The notes under the pieces were generated by a model. That model searched no databases. It saw only the letters and a program-made list of their open reading frames with translations, and was not told where the DNA came from. A DNA stretch of 64,000 nt from assembly GCA_964348785.1 (NCBI GenBank), contig CAYGDO010000002.1:66238-130237 (forward strand), in the 5' to 3' direction. Both the position numbers and the translations under genes were made by a program. Positions 2,167 to 45,070 of this stretch are shown piece by piece; position 1 is the first letter of the stretch; the number at the start of each line of letters is the position of its first letter. This DNA comes from an uncultured Candidatus Saccharibacteria bacterium. GTDB taxonomy: Bacteria; Patescibacteriota; Minisyncoccia; Phycocordibacterales; 2-02-FULL-43-11.

Positions 2167-2261
2167 ACTAAACCAAAAAAATTCATTTTAAATTTAATTA
2201 TGAAATAAAATAAAATTTAGTAAATATTTAAATATTTTATAAAAAGTTCATACTTTTAATT

Positions 2262-2723
2262 AGGCGAAGACTTCTCGATCGAACGGAAGAGTCAGGCGAC
2301 TCCTAGAAGCTCAATCGAGATGAGTTGAAAATTCTGCATCTGAACGGGTGTTCAGTCAGGATGAGAGTCCTTTGAAAATAGACTGGAAGATGTGACTTCC
2401 TATTCAGTCTCAAGGACAGAACCATAGCTAAGGTCAAAGGTCACCGTTCCACACGGCAAGCGCAATTCAGTGTCGGTAAGCTCGCGGAAAGGCGCGCTCT
2501 GCCAACGCAATGTGGAATGAACAAAATGCGGGTAACTATAATCCCGCTACCGAAGCTTGGTCCCTCCGGCAAACCATCATCGTCTTGGTTTTGACGATTG
2601 ATTAGGTAAGCCCTAAAAATGCCTCGGCCAAACCGCAGGGTTAAAGGTCGACCAAAGGGGAGGGGGTACGCGTTCTTCGCCTCGTTCTTTGCAACCGGTC
2701 CAGCTTTCAGGGCCGGTTTTTTT
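2262..2723 (+). ncRNA. candidate structured non-coding RNA, class unassigned (about 460 nt)
   Basis: No ORF. GC sharply elevated against flanks. Many perfect local hairpins (CUGAAC-GGGU-GUUCAG; AGACUG...CAGUCU; CGCG-GAAAGG-CGCG; GCGGG...CCCGC). Ends in a GC stem plus U7 terminator at 2694-2723. Confidence 0.45.
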
Positions 2724-3065
2724 ATTTTATATAAAATATTTTTTTAGAAAATCTGTAATGTTTGGAATGAAGTACAAATAAATTTATTTCCATAAATTTT
2801 TATCTATTCATAAAACCCAAAAAAACGACCAAGAAGAATAGGGGGGTAATTTCAAACCTTGCTCTATGACCCCCGTTACCATAAGCGTGTCGCACAATAT
2901 ATCTTTCCGGTAGTTATACCTGAGGGCCTTTAGAAGAGACCTCTCAAACCTTATTGTTAGTATTAATAGATATCAACTCAACATAACCTAAACAATAATT
3001 TAAAGTTTTATTTAGATAATTTATTCTTCTTTATGTATTCCCCCTGCAATAATTAATTATAAAAA

Positions 3066-3455: not shown

Positions 3456-3507
3456 ATGTCAATATTATATAATAAAAAATAATTTTAGAAAAGAAAAAAG
3501 TTGATAA

Positions 3508-4791
3508 TTATAAATAAATAAGGGGATTCAAATAAGCACGTAGGTCCGCAACAGGCATTATATAACTACCACTACAAACTTTACTCTTTCTACTCATTAT
3601 TTGAACACCTTGAGTGGCATAAACAGTAAAATGTAAATGTGGGCCAGTCGAATAACCAGTATTACCTGAATAGCCAATAGTTTGACCTGTAGAAACTTCT
3701 TGTCCTGCCCCACTAACCTCAAAAGCTGAAAGATGGGCATAAAGAGTTGAAAGACCATTTGGATGTTCAATTAGAATCCATTTACCATAAGAAGTTCCTG
3801 GGCAAGCGGTATCCGTATTACCAAAACCCTTAACAATTCCACCAAGAGAAGCTTTTATTGCCGTTCCAACATTTATAGCCAAATCGATGCCATTATGACC
3901 AGAACCGTTATAAAGTTGAGGATTAGAAAGTGCAAATTTTGTATTACCAAAATATTGACTAATTTTTACCTTATCAAGAGGCCACTGTAAAATACCTTTG
4001 CCTGTTTTTGGATAACTATCAGGATCAATAGCAAACTTAAGTTGAGATTCAAACTCTAAAAGTTCTTTTTCAAAAGCGTCCTTGTTAGCTAATTGATTTT
4101 TTAATAATTTTTGATACTCGGATTCTTTATTTTTAGTTTGAGTTAACAATTTTTCTTGTTCAGCTTTCAAAGATTGCGAGACTTTTTTGTTTCCCAACAA
4201 TTCTAAATTCAAATTCTCTAATTGTTTCTTTATCAAAAGAGCCTGCGCTTTATCTTTCTCTAAACCTTTTTTTGTAACTTTCAAATCTGTAATCAATTTT
4301 GATAGATTAGAAGAGAAAATCTGGTTCTGTCTTAAAGATGACCAATACTCTGACATATTGTCATAAGCCAAAACTGTAAAAATCACCGATTTTGATTCTA
4401 AAACTTCAGTATCCTTAATTGACGATGCAATACCGTCAACGCTTTTTTGTATAGATAAATTTTTGTTATCTATATCAAAACCCAATGATTGAATTTCCAA
4501 CTTTTTACCACCAATTTTCTGTTCAGTGACTTTTATTTGAGCGGTAATCTTTTTCATTTCACCGTCATATATCTTAATTTTATTACTCAAAGTATTCTGA
4601 GCATTTCTAGAAGATTGTATCTGCTTCTCAGTGTTAGCAATTTCTTCCTCCAAAGCTTTAATAGCGTCTTTTCGCAATTGAATTTTACTTTGCAACTCTT
4701 CTGGAGTTTCAGAAAATACAAAAGAAAAACTGACCACCCAAACGAGCGTCAAAAATAAAATAGCCCTTATCTTAAACTGGCACTTATCCAT
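3508..4791 (-). CDS. M23 family metallopeptidase (murein endopeptidase) with N-terminal coiled-coil, EnvC-like
   Basis: Signal/TM, long coiled-coil, 'HNGIDLAI' and 'GNTGYSTGPHLHFTVY' LytM/M23 motifs. Confidence 0.85.
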   Translation of the reverse strand: MDKCQFKIRAILFLTLVWVVSFSFVFSETPEELQSKIQLRKDAIKALEEEIANTEKQIQSSRNAQNTLSNKIKIYDGEMKKITAQIKVTEQKIGGKKLEIQSLGFDIDNKNLSIQKSVDGIASSIKDTEVLESKSVIFTVLAYDNMSEYWSSLRQNQIFSSNLSKLITDLKVTKKGLEKDKAQALLIKKQLENLNLELLGNKKVSQSLKAEQEKLLTQTKNKESEYQKLLKNQLANKDAFEKELLEFESQLKFAIDPDSYPKTGKGILQWPLDKVKISQYFGNTKFALSNPQLYNGSGHNGIDLAINVGTAIKASLGGIVKGFGNTDTACPGTSYGKWILIEHPNGLSTLYAHLSAFEVSGAGQEVSTGQTIGYSGNTGYSTGPHLHFTVYATQGVQIMSRKSKVCSGSYIMPVADLRAYLNPLIYL

Positions 4792-6137: not shown

Positions 6138-7262
6138 TTATTGATGTGATAAAGAAATTTTTATAAGTTCCTCAGCGATCTTTTTAGCAGAATCTGGTTT
6201 GAAAAAAGCCTTAGCTGAATCAGACATCTTATTTAACAACTCTCTGTTTTCCAAAAGACGTTTAATCTCGGAAACCAAAATAATCGGGGATAAGTTAGAT
6301 TCTTCAACAACTAAACACCCACCAAATCTAGCATAGTTGTAAGCATTTTTTCTTTGATGATCTCCATTAGATTCTGTAATCGGAATAATGATTGAAGGTA
6401 TACCCCAAGATGCAATCTCAAAAATTGATGAGCCTGCTCTTGAGATTATAAAATTGGCCGATCCTGCAACCATAGACATTGCCTCATCGTCAAAATAAGA
6501 AAAAGGATGATACCTCGTCAAAAAATTAACATTGTTTACCACTATAGAAGCTCTCTCTTTTACGTCCTTTATATTACTACGTCCTGTTTGATGTATTACC
6601 TGACAAAATTTCAAAAGTTCCGGCAAAGAAGACAAGATTATCTCATTGATTTTTTCAGCCCCCGAAGACCCGCCCAAAACCAATAAAACTGGCAAATCGT
6701 CTTCAAGGCCTAAAAAATTAAACGCTTCTTCTTTTTTATGTTTTTTTATTGAATCTCGAACTGGCTGTCCCACCCAAGCAGTTTTATTCTTTGGAAAAAA
6801 ATCTGCTGAATCTGGATAAGAAACAGCAACTCTATTTGCTATTTTTCCTAAAAATCTATTAGCGCGCCCTGGGATACTATCTGACTCGTGAATAATCACT
6901 GGTATGCCCCAAATCTTAGCGGCCAAAACTGTAGGGAAACTTGCAAAACCACCCTTACCAAAGACGACATCGGGATAAATCAAAAAAAGTTTAAACCAGG
7001 CGATAATAAAACCAAAAATTGTTTTAAAAATATCAATGAAATTTTTAAAAGAAAAATATAATCTAAATTTTCCAGCCGGTATTTTTACAAATTTTATACC
7101 ATATCTTCTAAGAGTATTTTCATCATAAGGATCTGGAGCACAAAAATACAAAGTTGGTTCAAGCAACTTTTGCTCTTTTACTATCTGCCTTATTTCTTCA
7201 ACTATGGCGATTATGGGATAAAAATGACCACCGCTACCCCCGCCAGTAAAAACAATTTTCAT
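6138..7262 (-). CDS. murG: undecaprenyldiphospho-muramoylpentapeptide beta-N-acetylglucosaminyltransferase
   Basis: 'MKIVFTGGGSGGHFYPIIAI' MurG N-terminus. C-terminal GT28 domain. Confidence 0.9.
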   Translation of the reverse strand: MKIVFTGGGSGGHFYPIIAIVEEIRQIVKEQKLLEPTLYFCAPDPYDENTLRRYGIKFVKIPAGKFRLYFSFKNFIDIFKTIFGFIIAWFKLFLIYPDVVFGKGGFASFPTVLAAKIWGIPVIIHESDSIPGRANRFLGKIANRVAVSYPDSADFFPKNKTAWVGQPVRDSIKKHKKEEAFNFLGLEDDLPVLLVLGGSSGAEKINEIILSSLPELLKFCQVIHQTGRSNIKDVKERASIVVNNVNFLTRYHPFSYFDDEAMSMVAGSANFIISRAGSSIFEIASWGIPSIIIPITESNGDHQRKNAYNYARFGGCLVVEESNLSPIILVSEIKRLLENRELLNKMSDSAKAFFKPDSAKKIAEELIKISLSHQ

Positions 7263-8381: not shown

Positions 8382-9455
8382 TTAAGCTATAAAAGCAATT
8401 ATCATTCCTATAACAGATAAAATAATTGATATAACCCAATACCTCATTACCACCTTATAAGCTGGCCAACCTATAGCTTCGAAATGGTGATGCATGGGGG
8501 CAACTAAGAAAACTTTTTTACCTCTAAATTTTTTTGATAAAACCTGAATAATAACAGAAAGTGCTGTGACAAAAAGAGGCAAAGCGATTATAGGTAAAAC
8601 TGATACCCCGTATCCATCACCAAGAGTATCACTCATAAAAGCGACAACGGTTAAAGCTAAAGTGAGAGCCATCGAGCCAGTCTCCGTCATATAGTATCTA
8701 GCTGGTGGTATGTTAAACCACAAAAAGGCCAGGATAGCTCCCGCCACAACAGCACAAAAAGCCGATAGATTTATTTGATTCTGATGAAAAGCAATACCGG
8801 CGTAAGCTAAAAATATTGACCCAAAAACACCTCCAGCCAGACCATCGAGTCCGTCTATAATTCCACCCGCATAAACCGCAAGGGCTACCAATACAAAGAA
8901 AGGTATAAACCAGTATCCTAAAAATAATTCTTTCCAAAAAGGAATATTTATAGAATCAACATCCAATTTAAAATAAAACCAAAGAGACACCAAAAAAGCA
9001 CAAAGTCCGACAAAAAATAAACGTTTTTTTAGAGACAAACCTCCCACCTTGTAAGTAGAATTACCTTTAATTTCCAAATAGTCATCAACAAAGCCAACAA
9101 AAGCTCCTAAAATTAAGACTGACAAAGGTATCCACGTCTGATCTCTTGAGAGAAAATCTAGCTTATCAAAAAACTGAAAAGGTGTGGCCTTGTCTAAAAA
9201 AACCACCAATAAAGTTGATAGCAAAACTGAAAACCATATCACTACCCCACCCAAACGTGGTACTTGTGTTTCCCTCTCTTTATGAAGTTGATTAAAAATT
9301 GGAGTACCCGTGCCGTCAAAAGAAATGTCTTTAGCCTTTTTCTTCCACATTTCATTTTTGTATAAAAAATTGGCCCAGGGAAAAGTAAAAACAATACCGA
9401 TAAAAAATGAAATGGTTGCCGGAATTAAAACTTTTGCTATATCAGTTAACATCAT
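8382..9455 (-). CDS. mraY: phospho-N-acetylmuramoyl-pentapeptide transferase
   Basis: 'DDYLEI' and 'APMHHHFEAIGW' MraY motifs, polytopic. Confidence 0.9.
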   Translation of the reverse strand: MMLTDIAKVLIPATISFFIGIVFTFPWANFLYKNEMWKKKAKDISFDGTGTPIFNQLHKERETQVPRLGGVVIWFSVLLSTLLVVFLDKATPFQFFDKLDFLSRDQTWIPLSVLILGAFVGFVDDYLEIKGNSTYKVGGLSLKKRLFFVGLCAFLVSLWFYFKLDVDSINIPFWKELFLGYWFIPFFVLVALAVYAGGIIDGLDGLAGGVFGSIFLAYAGIAFHQNQINLSAFCAVVAGAILAFLWFNIPPARYYMTETGSMALTLALTVVAFMSDTLGDGYGVSVLPIIALPLFVTALSVIIQVLSKKFRGKKVFLVAPMHHHFEAIGWPAYKVVMRYWVISIILSVIGMIIAFIA

Positions 9456-9459
9456 AAAA

Positions 9460-10488
9460 TTAATTGTTCTTTTTACTTAAATACTCGAGCGTCGCCGTAG
9501 TTAGTTTTTCAACGTCAGTAAACCTATCTTCAAAAGTTGAACCCAGCGCAACTACAGATATTGGATTACCGAAACCTGCATCAAAAACTATGACCAAATT
9601 TCCACCTGCCAAATTAGTATACCCAGTTTTTGATGCTATGACACCTGGTATGGAGTTGATAGTTTTATTTGTATTTATTGCATTATGTTTCAAATTGCTT
9701 AATGAACTAATTTTTAATTCATCATATTTTGTATTCCTAAATATATTGGGATATTGATTGACTGCATAACCTATCAAAAAAGCCATATCTCTCGCTGAAC
9801 CATAACCACCTGCCAAAAAATCATTCTCATCGAGACCACTTTCATTATTGAAATAAGTCTGTGCCAAACCTAAATCTTTAGCTTTTTCATTCATCATTTT
9901 TATAAAATACTTTCTCCCCTCTTCCCTGCCCGTCTTTACAAAAATTTCTCCCAAACTTGAGGAAACTGTATAAGCGCCATCATTGGATGACTCAATTAAA
10001 ACCAAATTTAACAAATCGCCTAAACGCCATTTTTCGTCGGCATACAATCCGCTGTCACCTTCCATAACTAAATCTGTTTTCTCAACACTTATAATTGTTG
10101 ACTCAGAAACTAATGATAAGGCCGTAACTGCTGTCATTGTTTTGGTCAACGAAGCAAGGGGCAATTGAGAATCACCATTTTTTTCAAAAAATATCTCTCC
10201 AGAATTTACATCAAAAACGTATGCGGATTTGGCTTTTATATCAATATCTTTAAAAAAATCCTCTTTTTTAATTTCGACCAATGCAACACTGGCCTCATTA
10301 TCTTTTGAAAAATTATCTCCAGAAAAAATCTGTCCTCCGCTAAACAAAAATACTAAAATAAAAATAGAAAAAAGGGATAAAAAAATCTCAGTTTTTGTTA
10401 AAAATTTATCCCTTTTTACCTCTATAGGTAAATTTTCAGGAACATAATTATATTCAATACTATTATTCTGTTCCAAGTTGTCCATCAT
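9460..10488 (-). CDS. D-alanyl-D-alanine carboxypeptidase (serine-type, PBP5/6-like, S11)
   Basis: SxxK 'ASLTKTMT', SxN 'ESSND', KTG 'KTGYT'. Confidence 0.8.
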   Translation of the reverse strand: MMDNLEQNNSIEYNYVPENLPIEVKRDKFLTKTEIFLSLFSIFILVFLFSGGQIFSGDNFSKDNEASVALVEIKKEDFFKDIDIKAKSAYVFDVNSGEIFFEKNGDSQLPLASLTKTMTAVTALSLVSESTIISVEKTDLVMEGDSGLYADEKWRLGDLLNLVLIESSNDGAYTVSSSLGEIFVKTGREEGRKYFIKMMNEKAKDLGLAQTYFNNESGLDENDFLAGGYGSARDMAFLIGYAVNQYPNIFRNTKYDELKISSLSNLKHNAINTNKTINSIPGVIASKTGYTNLAGGNLVIVFDAGFGNPISVVALGSTFEDRFTDVEKLTTATLEYLSKKNN

Positions 10489-11104: not shown

Positions 11105-11857
11105 TTAAATGTATTTAGGAGTTCCTATATCCTTTGTTTCTATAGTGATGTCCGAAAAATGTTCCTCCTGAGCGACATGCACTACTCCCTGTTTAACAAG
11201 TTCAAGCATAGCCAAAAAACTAACTATAACGTGTACTTTTTCTTTTTTCCCAAAACCTGAAAATTCTTTAAAACTCATCTTCAAAGAATCTTGGACTCTT
11301 TTTGAGAGATTTTGAATGACTTCTTCTAAGCTAATAACTTTCTGAACTATTGCTTTAGACAATTTCTCAAATTTTGGCAAAGAAAAAATAACTTGTTTTA
11401 TAGATAAAAGTAGATTTGGTAAAGTGATATTTTGATGAGGCGCAAAAACTTTACTAATCATTCTATTTTCCTGAAAAAGCAAAACATTTCTACCAAAAGA
11501 TGGTCTTAGGGTTTTTGATAATTCTTTGAATCTCTGGTAAATCTTTAACCTTCTCTCCAAATCTTCCATACTTCCCTGCTCTTCTTCTGACAATGCCAAC
11601 TCCGGCAAAAGAGCTTTTGATTTTATAAGAAGCAAAGTGGACGCCACCAAAATAAAATTAGCACTTTGTTCAATTGGAAAATCCGTAAAACTATTTACAT
11701 AACTTATATAATCATCAGCCACCTTAGCCAAAGAAATTTCGGTAATAGAAAGTTTTCTTTTTTCTATCAAAGATAAAAGCAACTCAAGTGGCCCCTCAAA
11801 TGCTTCCTGTTTAACTGTAAAAGATGACTGCATAATAAAATTTTTATTTTTTGACAC
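11105..11857 (-). CDS. scpA: segregation and condensation protein A
   Basis: 'FEGPLELLLSLIEKRKLSITEISLAKVADDY' ScpA signature. Confidence 0.85.
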   Translation of the reverse strand: MSKNKNFIMQSSFTVKQEAFEGPLELLLSLIEKRKLSITEISLAKVADDYISYVNSFTDFPIEQSANFILVASTLLLIKSKALLPELALSEEEQGSMEDLERRLKIYQRFKELSKTLRPSFGRNVLLFQENRMISKVFAPHQNITLPNLLLSIKQVIFSLPKFEKLSKAIVQKVISLEEVIQNLSKRVQDSLKMSFKEFSGFGKKEKVHVIVSFLAMLELVKQGVVHVAQEEHFSDITIETKDIGTPKYI

Positions 11858-13262
11858 TAAGACCCAATTCTAATAACTGTTCTTTTGAGATTTCGCTTGG
11901 CGCACTCATCATCAAGTCCTTTCCTTCGCCAGTTTTTGGAAATGCAATAACTTCTCTAATGTTTGGCTCGTTCTGAAGCAACATTACTATTCTATCAATT
12001 CCAGGAGCAAAACCACCGTGTGGAGGAGCTCCATATTTAAAGGCTTCAATCATATGAGCAAACTTTCTCTGTTGATCTTCTTCTCCAACACCAAGCAAAT
12101 CAAAAACTTTTTTCTGAATTTCTGATTTATGAATTCTTATACTTCCTGAAGACAACTCATAACCATTTAAAACTAAGTCATATGAATTTGCTCTGATTTC
12201 AAAAAGATTTTTATCAGTAGGACCAGTTGCGGACATAAACTTTTCTTCATCCTCTTTTTTAATTGAACAAAATGGATGATGTGCCGCTTGAACTTTTCCG
12301 TCATCAGTTCTTTCAAACATTGGAAAATCTACAATCCAAGCGAAAGCTAATTCATCAGGATTGCTTTTGTCTTTTCGAAGATCCGGCTTATCAGATCCAT
12401 ATTTATCCATAGATTCTTTAAAAGTTAATCTTGGGAATGGAGTTTCTGAAATTTTCTTATTTGGATAAACAGTTTTAATAAGTTCAATAAACATTTTTTC
12501 TGTATAAACCAAAACATCTTCTTGTTCAACAAAAGACATTTCAAAATCCAACTGAGTGAATTCTGGCTGTCTGTCGCCTCTTGTATCTTCGTCTCTCATA
12601 CATCTAGCAATCTGAAAATACTTTTCAAAGCCAGCAACCATCGAAAGTTGTTTAAATTGTTGAGGTGATTGAGGTAAGGCGTAAAATCTTCCTTTCTCAA
12701 GTCTTGAAGGAACAACATACTCTCTTGAACCTTCCGGAGTTCCCTTCATAAGTATAGGAGTTTCAATTTCAATGAAATCATTCTTGTGCATGTAGTCTCT
12801 AAAAAAAGCAATAATCTTATCTCTCATTCTGATATTTTTTTGAAGTCTTGATCTTCTCAAATCCAAATAACGATACTTCAATCGAACATCTTCACTAATT
12901 TCTTTTCCGTCAGTTCTAAGATCAAAAGGTGGGGTCTCAGCTTTATTTAGTATTTCTATACCCAATATTTCAAGTTCAATAGAACCATTTTCTTCATCTT
13001 TGTTTATCATCTTTTCAGGTCTGCCGTTTACTTTGGCCTTTAGAGCAAGAACCCATTCTGATCTTATTTCACCGGCAACTTGATGTGCCTCTTTGTGGTT
13101 AGGAAGAACAACAGATTGAACCTTGCCCGTCATATCACGAAAATCAAAGAAAATTAATTTTCCATGATCACGTCTAATATCTACCCAACCCTTCACTAAA
13201 ATTTCTTTACCAATATTATTTTTTAAATCTCTGATATATGTCCTTTCCATATTTTTAGACAT
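11844..13262 (-). CDS. aspS: aspartate--tRNA ligase, short form lacking the full bacterial insertion domain
   Basis: Class IIb motif 2 'RCMRDEDTRGDRQPEFTQLDFEMSF' matches AspRS 'FRDEDLRADRQPEFTQID'. N-terminal OB fold. 472 aa. Confidence 0.85.
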   Translation of the reverse strand: MSKNMERTYIRDLKNNIGKEILVKGWVDIRRDHGKLIFFDFRDMTGKVQSVVLPNHKEAHQVAGEIRSEWVLALKAKVNGRPEKMINKDEENGSIELEILGIEILNKAETPPFDLRTDGKEISEDVRLKYRYLDLRRSRLQKNIRMRDKIIAFFRDYMHKNDFIEIETPILMKGTPEGSREYVVPSRLEKGRFYALPQSPQQFKQLSMVAGFEKYFQIARCMRDEDTRGDRQPEFTQLDFEMSFVEQEDVLVYTEKMFIELIKTVYPNKKISETPFPRLTFKESMDKYGSDKPDLRKDKSNPDELAFAWIVDFPMFERTDDGKVQAAHHPFCSIKKEDEEKFMSATGPTDKNLFEIRANSYDLVLNGYELSSGSIRIHKSEIQKKVFDLLGVGEEDQQRKFAHMIEAFKYGAPPHGGFAPGIDRIVMLLQNEPNIREVIAFPKTGEGKDLMMSAPSEISKEQLLELGLSVKK

Positions 13263-29400: not shown

Positions 29401-29758
29401 ATGTCTTCGGTGTCGTGAGAAGGAAACGGAGCCACTGATGGGTCTCCCTGCGGAGATACAGAGGGCTCGTGTGATTCCCAAAAAAGTACCCGAAAGGGAC
29501 ATAAGGGAAGAGCCTAAACCCCGGCTTGGCTGGGGGGTTGAGGGACCTCAACATCACGGTATCTACGAACGGTCGCCGGAATAGGTTCGGCGTGACTTAG
29601 TAGGAGAACCGAGAGGTATCCCAAGTAGGTTCGTGCCATGCGACCGAATCCGTCCCAGAACTCTGGGATAAGGCTAAACTCTGAGCGCCCTTGCGAGCGC
29701 GCTCCTCCGAAGACCCGGACCCCCACGTTGCACAAGCGACGTGGGGTTTTGTTTTTTT
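29401..29758 (+). ncRNA. candidate structured non-coding RNA, class unassigned (about 355 nt)
   Basis: GC-rich island on the plus strand amid minus-strand genes. Long-range perfect 8-bp closing stem GUCUUCGG (29403-29410) with CCGAAGAC (29707-29714). GNRA hairpin CCC-GAAA-GGG. Ends with strong terminator ccccacg..cgtgggg plus U-run at 29721-29758. Annotated ORFs here are short and overlapping. Confidence 0.45.
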
Positions 29759-29765
29759 AAAAAAC

Positions 29766-44575: not shown

Positions 44576-45070
44576 TCAGTCCTTCCTCATTCTATAAGGA
44601 CTGGGCCCGTCTGGAGATCGGTCCAATAACTCTTGAACCCGATCCCTCATCCGAGGTTCCATTTTCTGAAGCAACCCCGCCATCGTGTCCGGACAAGCAG
44701 GTGAAGTCTCAGCGGTCAGTTGTGGCCAACCACCATCACCGTCCGCCGGATCCTGCATAGGCCAACCGTTGCCAGTTTCGGCCGTAACGGGAGGTGTAGA
44801 AGCCGGGACAAGTTCCACATCCGGCTCTCCAAACATTCGACACAAAACTGTCAGAATATTATTCTCCGCATCAATCCCAATCCCTAAAAACCTTCCCAGG
44901 GCATCCGAGACTACGGTAGAATCTGGGACACACTCACCGTGCGCAACGAAGCCCTGCTCTCCAACACTTACCCACTGACCGAACATCGGCGAACCGTCGA
45001 GCTGAAGACCGAGAATTCTCTGACGAGCTTCAGAAGTCAAAAAATTCACACCAGCTTTTTCATTACTCAT
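44576..45070 (-). CDS. hypothetical protein in a strongly GC-rich island
   Basis: ATG preceded by AGGAGG RBS (8-nt spacing). GC far above neighbours. Own terminator. Confidence 0.5.
   Translation of the reverse strand: MSNEKAGVNFLTSEARQRILGLQLDGSPMFGQWVSVGEQGFVAHGECVPDSTVVSDALGRFLGIGIDAENNILTVLCRMFGEPDVELVPASTPPVTAETGNGWPMQDPADGDGGWPQLTAETSPACPDTMAGLLQKMEPRMRDRVQELLDRSPDGPSPYRMRKD

What the first reader, a model, noticed from the sequence alone, without database searches (positions are those of the whole stretch)
2262..2723. About 460-nt GC-rich structured RNA candidate with terminator, class unassigned
This is a sharp GC-rich island in an AT-rich genome with no ORF. It contains a dense series of perfect hairpins, including CUGAAC-GGGU-GUUCAG, AGACUG..CAGUCU enclosing GGAAG..CUUCC, CGCG-GAAAGG-CGCG and GCGGG..CCCGC. 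It ends in a stem-plus-U7 terminator. Its size fits RNase P RNA or tmRNA, but a P4 pseudoknot cannot be formed: the 'GGAAGAGUCAGGCGACUCC' and 'ACAGAACCAUAGCUAAGG' look-alikes lie only about 110 nt apart and are not complementary. No tRNA-like T-arm or CCA end is present either. It is either a very divergent essential RNA or a new large ncRNA.
Basis: seen in the sequence. Interest (0 to 1): 0.8.

Follow-up and report, generated by a model that had tools for sequence, protein, structure and literature searches.

The report
New large structured RNA in CPR bacteria
A roughly 460-base stretch with no protein gene encodes a heavily folded RNA whose shape has been preserved by evolution in a few closely related ultra-small (CPR) bacteria.

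Summary
Window 2262-2723 (+) is a 50% GC island in a 36% GC genome, with no conserved ORF. It has its own promoter-like -10 box and a stem-plus-U7 terminator.

Syntenic homologs exist in four other metagenomic lineages, 63-85% identical. Their helices change by compensatory substitutions:
- Domain 1: 18 of 43 pairs changed on both sides.
- Both modelled domains: about 90% of cells paired, against 49% or less in slid controls.
- G-U pairs fix the plus strand as the functional one.

The fold has three domains closed by an invariant 9-bp P1, with one covarying pseudoknot and one invariant pseudoknot candidate.

No Rfam 15 family matches, even at E<=10, in three homologs. ARAGORN finds no tmRNA. 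Both RNase P look-alikes sit in other helices that covariation supports.

One lineage inside the clade keeps only a ~70-nt 3' remnant. Four outgroup lineages lack the RNA at the syntenic site. Exact-motif scans of large genome, metagenome and viral collections found nothing. So this is an accessory, narrowly distributed RNA and not a divergent essential one.

Best reading: a new class of large structured ncRNA of unknown function, probably an RNP scaffold or ribozyme-like core.

A second unassigned GC-rich RNA candidate lies at 29404-29760.

The parts
2227..2254 (+). Promoter-like region: -10 box CATACT at 2249-2254 (CATAAT in L003, TATAAG in L008), 7-8 nt before the conserved AGGCG start. An A/T-rich -35-like TTTAAA sits 16 nt upstream.
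   Evidence: Read from the sequence and the alignment of upstream regions. The consensus scanner instead flagged 2187-2216. No transcript data, so this is inferred.
2262..2723 (+). The whole RNA gene (about 421 nt from P1 5' to P1 3', plus a 3' tail and terminator).
   Evidence: Conserved from the first base AGGCGAAG to the U-run in the window, L092, L003 and L008. L005 is the same but cut at its 5' end. nhmmer E-values are 1e-101 to 1e-143.
2262..2270 (+). P1 5' strand AGGCGAAGA. Pairs with 2674-2682.
   Evidence: 9 bp, invariant in all four full-length homologs. No covariation, so supported only by conservation and folding.
2273..2320 (+). P2 domain: P2 stem 2273-2282/2311-2320, a purine-rich asymmetric internal loop, and P2a hairpin 2289-2293/2298-2302.
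   Evidence: Five of the ten P2 pairs change on both sides, and those two helices are 100% and 90% paired (helices 1-2). The P2a sequence is replaced in L003 and L008. Weak C/D-box sRNA hits appear in L003 and L008 only.
2321..2330 (+). J2/3, conserved single-stranded UGAGYKGAAA.
   Evidence: Nearly invariant block.
2331..2362 (+). P3 (AUUCUG 2331-2336 / CAGGAU 2357-2362) enclosing hairpin P3a (2340-2345/2350-2355).
   Evidence: P3 reads AGUGA/UCGCU in L003 and GCUCUG/CAGGGC in L008. P3a differs in every lineage. helices 4-5 have 8 pairs changed on both sides.
2367..2417 (+). P4 (GUCCUU 2367-2372 / AAGGAC 2412-2417) enclosing P5 (2380-2385/2405-2410) and P5a, whose loop AUGUGA is invariant.
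   Evidence: P4 is GUUCC/GGAAC in L003 and GUCCUU/AGGGAC in L008. helices 6-8.
2392..2398 (+). GUGACUU in the P5a loop and 3' stem. Candidate pseudoknot partner of AGGUCAC at 2438-2444.
   Evidence: 7-bp complementarity, invariant in all homologs. It would explain why both segments never change. No covariation, so it remains a candidate.
2421..2434 (+). P6 5' strand ACCAUAGCUAAGGU (bulged U2425, 2x2 purine loop). Pairs with 2549-2561.
   Evidence: 11 pairs, 100% paired. A-U becomes G-C in L003 and L005 (helix 1).
2445..2547 (+). Interior of domain 2: P7 (2445-2452/2512-2519), branched P8 with a hypervariable distal part, J AACAAAA, and P9 hairpin (2528-2532/2543-2547).
   Evidence: P7 has two pairs changed on both sides and is 100% paired. 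P8 and P9 are partly out of register in the alignment, so they were curated by hand. The distal P8 cassette is swapped between L003 and L005, which are otherwise near-identical.
2549..2561 (+). P6 3' strand ACCGAAGCUUGGU.
2562..2664 (+). Domain 3. P10 (CCCUCC 2562-2567 / GGAGGG 2659-2664) starts directly after P6. Inside are hairpin P11 (2579-2584/2593-2598), whose loop GGUUU (2587-2591) pairs with AAACC (2571-2575), and an insert of variable length.
   Evidence: P10 is UUCUCC/GGAGAA in L008. The pseudoknot is GGCG/CGCC in L008. Insert length differs between all lineages.
2665..2682 (+). J10/1 GGUACGCRU followed by the P1 3' strand UCUUCGCCU (2674-2682).
   Evidence: Conserved block. It is also the part that survives in the L093 remnant.
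2683..2723 (+). Conserved 3' tail CGUUCUUUGCAA (a near-repeat of the P1 3' strand), then the intrinsic terminator 2693-2718 plus U7.

Best explanation
Window 2262-2723 (+) is a stand-alone gene for a trans-acting non-coding RNA of about 420-460 nt. It belongs to a family that has not been described.

Shown:
- It is conserved at one locus in a small clade of Patescibacteria (Paceibacteria-like).
- It sits between a terminator of the upstream gene and its own terminator.
- Its helices are maintained by compensatory substitutions, while the junction sequences stay nearly invariant.
- It folds into three domains (P2-P5, P6-P9, P10-P11) that all open onto one central junction closed by the invariant helix P1.
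- One pseudoknot (P11 loop with AAACC) covaries.
- The RNA is dispensable, because one lineage in the clade has deleted it.

Inferred:
- A second pseudoknot (P5a loop GUGACUU with J6/7 AGGUCAC) would tie domains 1 and 2 together.
- Transcription starts at about 2261-2262, from a CATACT -10 box.
- The RNA works through its fold, not by base-pairing to a target. The invariant junctions, the bulged U and purine loop in P6, and the pseudoknots would build a compact core. That core would bind a protein partner or small ligand, or be catalytic, in the manner of the orphan large bacterial RNAs OLE, raiA, ROOL and GOLLD.

My split within this reading: protein-binding scaffold about 0.4, regulatory or sequestering RNA about 0.2, ribozyme or self-assembling RNA about 0.15, other about 0.25.
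For: - GC island without an ORF.
- Upstream-gene terminator at 2132-2160 and the RNA's own terminator at 2693-2718, both on the plus strand.
- Homologs in L092, L003/L004/L006, L005 and L008 at the same locus.
- Alignments show conserved junction blocks and variable helices.
- Covariation, domain 1: 18 of 43 pairs changed on both sides and 88.8% of cells paired, against 49% or less when partners are slid. 0 of 500 shuffles reach the observed value for four of the five measures, the exception being the count of further pair types (74 of 500).
- Covariation, domain 2: 91.5% paired against 42% or less when slid. Covariation score is 0.197 against 0.108, with 0 of 500 shuffles reaching it. Weaker measures: pairs changed on both sides number 5 against a shuffled mean of 3.3 (51 of 500 reach it), and further pair types fall below the shuffled mean.
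- Hand-curated table: 6 non-canonical cells of 513.
- G-U pairs (P3, P7, P4, P9, terminator) would be A-C mismatches on the other strand.
- No Rfam family matches, and no tRNA or tmRNA.
- Loss in L093, which belongs to the clade by MurG, M23, RNase T and methyltransferase identity of 82-87%.
- Absence at the syntenic site in L011/L013, L014, L094 and L095.
Against: - Only five distinct sequences from one narrow clade. The shuffle controls do not correct for relatedness, and parts of the alignment were fitted to the structure.
- P1, P6b/c, P5a and the second pseudoknot never vary, so they rest on conservation alone.
- There are no expression data, so the transcript ends are inferred.
- A complex 420-nt fold is unlikely to have arisen within such a small clade, so relatives should exist somewhere. 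I found none with exact 16-18-nt motifs. This may only mean the motifs vary.
- CPR RNase P RNAs are known to score below Rfam thresholds (PMC8172020). A negative Rfam scan is therefore weak evidence by itself.
- No partner protein or target has been identified, so the mechanism is by analogy only.
Confidence: 0.65

Rival explanations
1. It is the lineage's highly divergent RNase P RNA, possibly rearranged.
For: - The size fits.
- A closing P1 helix is present.
- There are CR-V-like (GACAGAACCAUAGCUAAGG) and CR-I-like (GAGYKGAAA-helix) motifs.
- CPR RNase P RNAs are diverged. 10 of 35 complete CPR genomes needed sub-threshold scores to find them (PMC8172020).
Against: - No RNase P model scores at E<=10 in the window, L003 or L008.
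- Both look-alike strands are used in other helices that covary: P3 is local and P6 pairs downstream. They are not complementary to each other.
- The sequence just 5' of P1's 3' strand is GGAGGG-GGUACGCGU, not a P4 strand.
- The order required by a circular permutation (P2 strands flanking the look-alikes) is not met. This is my reading of the sequence.
- The RNA was deleted in L093 and is absent from the syntenic site in outgroups.
Confidence: 0.03
2. It is a divergent tmRNA (or another housekeeping RNA such as SRP or 6S RNA).
For: - The size fits, and it has pseudoknots.
- The paired 5' and 3' ends resemble an acceptor stem.
- tmRNA and 6S RNA can be lost without lethality.
Against: - ARAGORN finds no tmRNA, standard or permuted.
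- There is no Rfam tmRNA, SRP or 6S match at E<=10.
- There is no T-arm between J10/1 and P1 3'.
- Position 3:70 of the stem is C-G, not G-U.
- There is no CCA and no conserved tag frame.
- The multi-domain architecture is unlike the single bubble hairpin of 6S RNA.
Confidence: 0.02
3. It is the RNA of a mobile or formerly mobile element (an intron-derived, IscB/TnpB-guide-like or retron-like RNA) that inserted at this locus and is now decaying.
For: - It is present only in one small clade at one intergenic site.
- There is one clean deletion (L093).
- Cassettes are swapped between near-identical strains (L003 against L005).
- Peripheral inserts are hypervariable.
Against: - No transposase, reverse transcriptase, IscB/TnpB or integrase lies next to it in any RNA-bearing locus.
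- There are no flanking repeats and only one copy in 64 kb.
- There are no HEARO, group I, group II or retron hits.
- There are no matches in phage, plasmid or viral collections.
- Compensatory substitutions show that selection on the fold continues.
Confidence: 0.12
4. It is a cis-acting element (a long 3' UTR or riboswitch-like leader), or the functional product is on the minus strand.
For: - It lies 140 nt downstream of the 156-aa gene on the same strand.
- The minus-strand fold has the lower z-score.
- A conserved block at 2888-2903 could be a promoter facing it.
Against: - A strong terminator (13 bp plus a T-run) separates it from the upstream gene.
- No plus-strand gene follows it; the next gene is convergent.
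- The conserved G-U pairs become A-C on the minus strand.
- The terminator and the -10 box are plus-strand features.
Confidence: 0.06

Closest known systems
Orphan large structured bacterial ncRNAs (OLE, raiA, ROOL, GOLLD; Rfam families, reviewed in PMC10861870 and PMC12286853)
   Same: - More than 400 nt with many helices and pseudoknots.
- Sequence-invariant junctions combined with covarying stems.
- A stand-alone gene that is not essential.
- Function not deducible from sequence.
   Different: - No sequence or structure match to any of them.
- Found in Patescibacteria, not Bacillota or phages.
- Far narrower distribution.
- No conserved partner gene such as oapA next to it.
Bacterial RNase P RNA, type A (RF00010)
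   Same: - Similar length, with a closing P1 helix.
- A long-range helix with a bulged U (P6), preceded by a CAGAA-like run.
- A GAAA-rich junction before a helix.
   Different: - The strand order of the P4-like helix is reversed.
- The CR-I-like strand pairs locally.
- There is no P2/P3 arrangement and no model hit.
- It is dispensable and clade-restricted.
tmRNA (RF00023 and relatives)
   Same: - Similar length.
- Paired 5' and 3' ends.
- H-type pseudoknot(s).
   Different: - No tRNA-like domain (T-arm, G3-U70, CCA).
- No tag reading frame.
- ARAGORN and Rfam are both negative.
HEARO / IscB omega-RNA and other element-borne guide RNAs
   Same: - Large structured RNA with a patchy, lineage-specific occurrence.
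- Variable cassettes.
   Different: - No IscB, TnpB or transposase gene nearby.
- A single copy.
- No Rfam HEARO hit.

Membership tests
RNase P RNA (bacterial) | Match to the family covariance models (RNaseP_bact_a/b and relatives) | tested here: not met
   No hit at gathering score in 64 kb. None at E<=10 in about 0.5-1 kb scans of the window, L008 and L003. Caveat: scores below roughly 10-15 bits would not be listed, and CPR RNase P RNAs can score low (PMC8172020).
RNase P RNA (bacterial) | P4 pseudoknot between CR-I (after P3, near the 5' end) and CR-V (just before the P1 3' strand) | tested here: not met
   The look-alike strands are not complementary to each other. Each is held in another helix that covaries (P3 local; P6 with a downstream strand). 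The sequence before P1 3' is GGAGGG-GGUACGCGU.
RNase P RNA (bacterial) | Essential, and present in every genome of a lineage | tested here: not met
   Reduced to a ~70-nt 3' remnant in L093, which is inside the clade. Absent at the syntenic site in L011/L013, L014 and L094/L095. Whole genomes could not be scanned, so a second copy elsewhere is not excluded.
tmRNA | tRNA-like domain: 7-bp acceptor stem with G3-U70, T-arm, 3' CCA or a site for it | tested here: not met
   ARAGORN found 0 genes in the window. P1 has C-G at the third pair, no T-arm precedes its 3' strand, and UCG follows it.
tmRNA | Conserved tag-peptide reading frame with a resume codon after PK1 | tested here: not met
   On the minus strand, the longest stop-free stretch falls in different frames in different homologs. 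On the plus strand, the stop-free stretches differ in frame and length between homologs, but their frames were not compared across the alignment. Indel lengths between homologs are not multiples of 3.
SRP RNA / 6S RNA | Family model match (helix 8 motif; or a single long hairpin with a central bubble) | tested here: not met
   No hits. The architecture is a three-domain multi-junction fold.
OLE / ROOL / GOLLD / raiA / HEARO | Match to the family covariance model | tested here: not met
   No hits at E<=10 in three homologs.
K-turn / C/D-box-like module | Canonical stem, 3-nt bulge, then tandem sheared G-A pairs, conserved across homologs | tested here: not met
   Sub-threshold archaeal C/D sRNA hits in L003 (20.4 bits against 50) and L008 (9 bits) only. 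UGAUGA/CGAAA is present in L003 and L008. The window and L092 read CUAGAAGC/ACGGAA, so the motif is not conserved.
Group I / group II intron | Family model match, exon context, P3-P7 pseudoknot or domain V | tested here: inconclusive
   No Rfam hit. It is not inside any gene, and the paired 5' and 3' ends are unlike a group I intron. Short resemblances to P/R/S elements come from my memory only and were not tested further.
New structured ncRNA class (operational criteria: conserved, covarying, non-coding, own transcription signals) | Helices maintained by compensatory change in independent lineages | tested here: met
New structured ncRNA class (operational criteria) | Expressed as a discrete transcript | not testable with these tools
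   Only promoter-like and terminator signals are available.

The most novel reading that the evidence does not exclude
The RNA is the founding member of a new class of large RNA that is catalytic or self-assembling (OLE-, ROOL- or GOLLD-like) and specific to CPR bacteria. Together with the second unassigned GC-rich RNA candidate at 29404-29760 in the same 64 kb, it would indicate that reduced CPR genomes carry a repertoire of large structured RNAs that current family libraries miss entirely.
Probability: 0.15. Interest if true: 0.85.

Novelty: categorically new. Interest (0 to 1): 0.6.

Why it matters
Bacterial RNAs longer than 400 nt with many conserved helices and pseudoknots are rare. Almost all of those whose function is known are ribozymes or the cores of essential ribonucleoproteins. 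The few orphan classes (OLE, raiA, ROOL, GOLLD) have each opened a line of research.

CPR/Patescibacteria have tiny genomes with little spare DNA, and their biology is largely unknown. A dedicated gene for a 420-nt ornate RNA kept under structural selection is therefore likely to do something specific.

The natural deletion variant (L093) and the hypervariable cassettes give ready-made comparisons.

The limits are the very narrow distribution (five sequences from one clade) and the complete lack of functional or expression data. The finding is a solid candidate and not yet a characterised class.

Tried and rejected
- **Rfam.** At gathering score on the whole window, and at E<=10 on the window region, L008 and L003. 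Only terminator-type noise and weak C/D-box hits appeared.
- **ARAGORN.** Nothing found.
- **BLASTN against annotated collections.** Distant-mode searches against phages and plasmids found nothing.
- **Exact-motif scans.**
  - CAGAACCNTAGCTAAGG in 185,579 species genomes gave 58 hits, all chance by nhmmer.
  - TACCGAAGCTNGGNNNCTCCGG in JGI metagenomes gave 13 chance hits. The known JGI homologs were not returned, so that collection does not hold those samples.
  - Five motifs in IMG/VR gave chance hits only.
- **Synteny walk.** I used GluRS and the 156-aa neighbour. Beyond the clade (neighbour proteins 60% identical or less), the intergenic space is too short and the CMs find nothing.
- **RNase P mapping.** I tried both the normal and the circularly permuted order. 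Both were rejected on helix partners.
- **A P4/UCCUU-AAAGG pseudoknot.** I first considered this, then dropped it in favour of the covarying local P4.
- **K-turn in P2.** Not conserved in the window or L092.
- **Minus-strand ORF.** Rejected.
- **Homology between this RNA and the second island at 29.4 kb.** The layout of the first domain looks similar by eye, but the CMs give no signal.
- **Alignment register.** MAFFT and CM alignments left P2a, P3, P4 (in L003) and P9 partly out of register. The tool counts therefore understate pairing, and my hand-curated table has some arbitrary registers in the replaced hairpins.

Full report
**What is at the coordinates**

The window is a cellular, AT-rich genome (36% GC) of the Patescibacteria/CPR. 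The neighbouring genes are GluRS, MurG, FtsW, MraY and an M23 peptidase, and the best protein matches are Paceibacteria/Taylorbacteria-like MAGs.

Between the terminator of a 156-aa secreted-protein gene (2132-2160) and a convergent 102-aa membrane-protein gene lies 1 kb without ORFs. Its first half, 2262-2723, reaches 48-52% GC, 3.4 sd above the window's 400-nt mean.

The plus strand folds to -164 kcal/mol (z -3.45). The minus strand folds equally well (z -5.33), so energy alone does not choose a strand.

**Known families**

- Rfam 15 gives no hit at gathering score anywhere in the 64 kb.
- With E<=10 on short stretches, it gives no large-RNA family in the window copy or in two diverged homologs.
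- ARAGORN finds no tRNA or tmRNA in the window.
- Phage and plasmid collections hold nothing similar.
- Lui et al. (PMC8172020) showed that CPR RNase P RNAs can fall below Rfam thresholds. I therefore did not rely on the negative scan and tested the defining features directly (see the section on RNase P and tmRNA below).

**Relatives**

The exact 102-aa neighbour is on contigs with an identical RNA (L001, L002).

Homologs of GluRS and of the 156-aa neighbour led to four further lineages with the RNA at the same place:

| Locus | Position | Strand | Note |
|---|---|---|---|
| L092 | 581-1079 | + | full length |
| L003 | 11554-11991 | - | identical in L004 and L006 |
| L005 | 9402-9800 | - | cut by the contig end |
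| L008 | 3467-3920 | - | full length |

These are 63-85% identical to the window and to each other. L003 and L005 are 95% identical.

L093 (GCA_964625375.1) belongs to the same clade, with MurG, M23, RNase T and methyltransferase at 82-87% identity. It keeps only about 70 nt of the 3' end (P10 3' strand, J10/1, P1 3' strand) behind the upstream gene's terminator.

The next-nearest lineages have neighbour proteins 54-67% identical. These are L011/L012/L013, L014, L094 and L095. Their intergenic spaces are too short, and neither nhmmer nor the covariance models find the RNA there.

Exact-motif scans of one genome per GTDB species, of JGI metagenome contigs and of IMG/VR returned only chance matches. 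The metagenome collection evidently lacks the samples that hold the known homologs. These negatives bound the exact motifs, not the family as a whole.

**Structure and covariation**

The alignments show blocks of invariant sequence separated by stretches that differ but can always form the same helices.

The resulting model, in window coordinates:
- **P1:** 2262-2270 with 2674-2682.
- **P2:** 2273-2282 with 2311-2320, with a purine-rich internal loop and hairpin P2a.
- **J2/3:** UGAGYKGAAA.
- **P3:** 2331-2336 with 2357-2362, with hairpin P3a.
- **P4:** 2367-2372 with 2412-2417, enclosing P5/P5a.
- **P6:** 2421-2434 with 2549-2561, enclosing P7, the branched P8, an AACAAAA junction and P9.
- **P10:** 2562-2567 with 2659-2664, starting directly after P6. 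It encloses hairpin P11, whose loop pairs with the upstream AAACC, and an insert of variable length.
- **3' end:** J10/1 GGUACGCRU, then a conserved tail, then the terminator.

Covariance models of domains 1 and 2 were used to align the five sequences.

| Measure | Domain 1 | Domain 2 |
|---|---|---|
| Pairs changed on both sides | 18 of 43 | 5 of 31 |
| Cells paired | 88.8% | 91.5% |
| Cells paired when partners are slid | 49% or less | 42% or less |
| Covariation score (shuffled mean) | 0.351 (0.176) | 0.197 (0.108) |
| Shuffles reaching the observed covariation score | 0 of 500 | 0 of 500 |

The weaker measures are the further-pair-types count in both domains (74 of 500 and 485 of 500 shuffles reach it) and the pairs-changed count in domain 2 (51 of 500).

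A hand-curated helix table, which corrects registers the aligners missed, has 6 non-canonical cells among 513.

P10 (CC to UU with GG to AA) and the P11 pseudoknot (AAACC/GGUUU to GGCG/CGCC) also change in a compensatory way in L008.

Conserved G-U pairs in P3, P7, P4, P9 and the terminator would be A-C mismatches on the minus strand. The functional strand is therefore plus.

A 7-bp complementarity between the invariant P5a loop (GUGACUU, 2392-2398) and the invariant J6/7 (AGGUCAC, 2438-2444) is a candidate second pseudoknot.

Caveats:
- There are only five sequences from one clade.
- P1, most of P6 and P5a never vary.
- The shuffle control ignores relatedness.

**Not coding**

No ORF exceeds 44 aa. 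The long stop-free stretch on the minus strand is in different frames in different homologs and has no start.

**Why it is not RNase P RNA or tmRNA**

In the second look-alike (ACAGAACCAUAGCUAAGG):
- The AC is paired in P4.
- CCAUAGCU..GGU pairs with a strand 115 nt downstream (P6, with one compensatory change).
- L003 reads CCAGAAC at this position.

A better CR-I look-alike (GAGCGGAAAG plus a helix strand) forms the local helix P3, which covaries.

The stretch before the P1 3' strand carries no P4 strand, and a circularly permuted order does not fit either.

For tmRNA there is no T-arm, no G3-U70, no CCA and no conserved tag frame.

Loss of the gene in L093 and its absence from outgroup loci argue against any essential role. 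Second copies elsewhere in those genomes could not be excluded.

**What it most likely is**

It is an independently transcribed, trans-acting, accessory structured RNA of a family not yet described. The evidence for independent transcription is a conserved -10 box (CATACT/CATAAT/TATAAG) 7-8 nt before the invariant AGGCG start, together with its own terminator.

Invariant junctions combined with freely covarying stems, two pseudoknots, and peripheral cassettes that are hypervariable (even swapped between L003 and L005) are the signature of RNAs that act through a compact tertiary core. I rank a protein-binding scaffold first. A sequestering or regulatory RNA comes second. A ribozyme or self-assembling RNA comes third.

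A mobile-element origin is the main rival (0.12). It is suggested by the single-clade, single-site distribution and the deletion. Against it, there are no element genes, repeats, extra copies or viral or plasmid relatives.

**Seen in passing**

A second GC-rich, ORF-free island at 29404-29760 (+) has a closing helix, many hairpins and its own terminator, with z -4.05. It has no Rfam match at E<=10 and is not matched by the models of the first RNA. Its identity is open.

Other items are listed in the separate section of the report.

Noticed in passing
window 29404-29760 (+): Second GC-rich (about 0.55), ORF-free island between an acyltransferase gene and a PLD-like gene. It has a closing helix UCUUCGG/CCGAAGA, many hairpins and its own terminator, with MFE z -4.05. 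It has no Rfam match at E<=10 and is not matched by the CMs of the first RNA. It carries GAAGGAAACGGAGCC and CCAGAACUCUGG..GGCUAAAC motifs of RNase P flavour in the right order. By my reading it lacks a P3 and has only a 5-bp P4 candidate. It could be the lineage's diverged RNase P RNA or another unassigned RNA.
   Followed up: partly
window 2888-2903 (also L092 ~1240-1255, L093 ~6432-6447, L003, L008, L011/L013): The 16-nt block TGTCGCACAATATATC is invariant in six lineages, including L011, which lacks the large RNA. It is followed by CGGTAGTTATA in most of them, and then by what looks, by eye, like a variable hairpin. It may be a promoter or operator, or the start of a small RNA, lying between the large RNA's terminator and the convergent gene.
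   Followed up: partly
window 2674-2693: The 3' tail repeats the P1 3' strand: GUUCUUCGCCUC is followed by GUUCUUUGCAAC. The tail could pair with the P1 5' strand instead (GCGAAGA/UCUUUGC, 7 bp) or with J2/3 (GAUGAG/CUCGUU). Whether this is an alternative conformation or a duplication relic is unexplained.
   Followed up: no
L003:11676-11820 against L005:9524-9678: Two otherwise near-identical RNAs differ by a complete swap of a 40-50-nt distal P8 cassette. Each version forms its own stem (GCACA/UGUGC against GCAAC/GUUGC). The insert in domain 3 also differs in length in every lineage.
   Followed up: partly
L093:8527-9876: The GluRS of this genome is only 58% identical to the clade, while the flanking MurG, M23, RNase T and methyltransferase are 82-87% identical. 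The aminoacyl-tRNA synthetase gene appears to have been replaced in place.
   Followed up: partly
window 1-64000: No tRNA, tmRNA or any Rfam family at gathering score is found in 64 kb of a bacterial genome.
   Followed up: no
window 44576-45070 (-): A 164-aa ORF with 55% GC, far above the genome's 36%, has its own terminator and no Pfam match. It may be a foreign gene.
   Followed up: no
window 2262-2723 (-), and all homologs: A stop-free stretch of 80-94 codons on the minus strand occurs in every homolog. The frames differ between homologs and there is no start codon. It is a composition effect and not a gene.
   Followed up: yes
L014:13085-15597: In this outgroup, the site that holds the RNA in the clade is occupied by two phage-integrase-family genes and a 182-aa ORF.
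   Followed up: no
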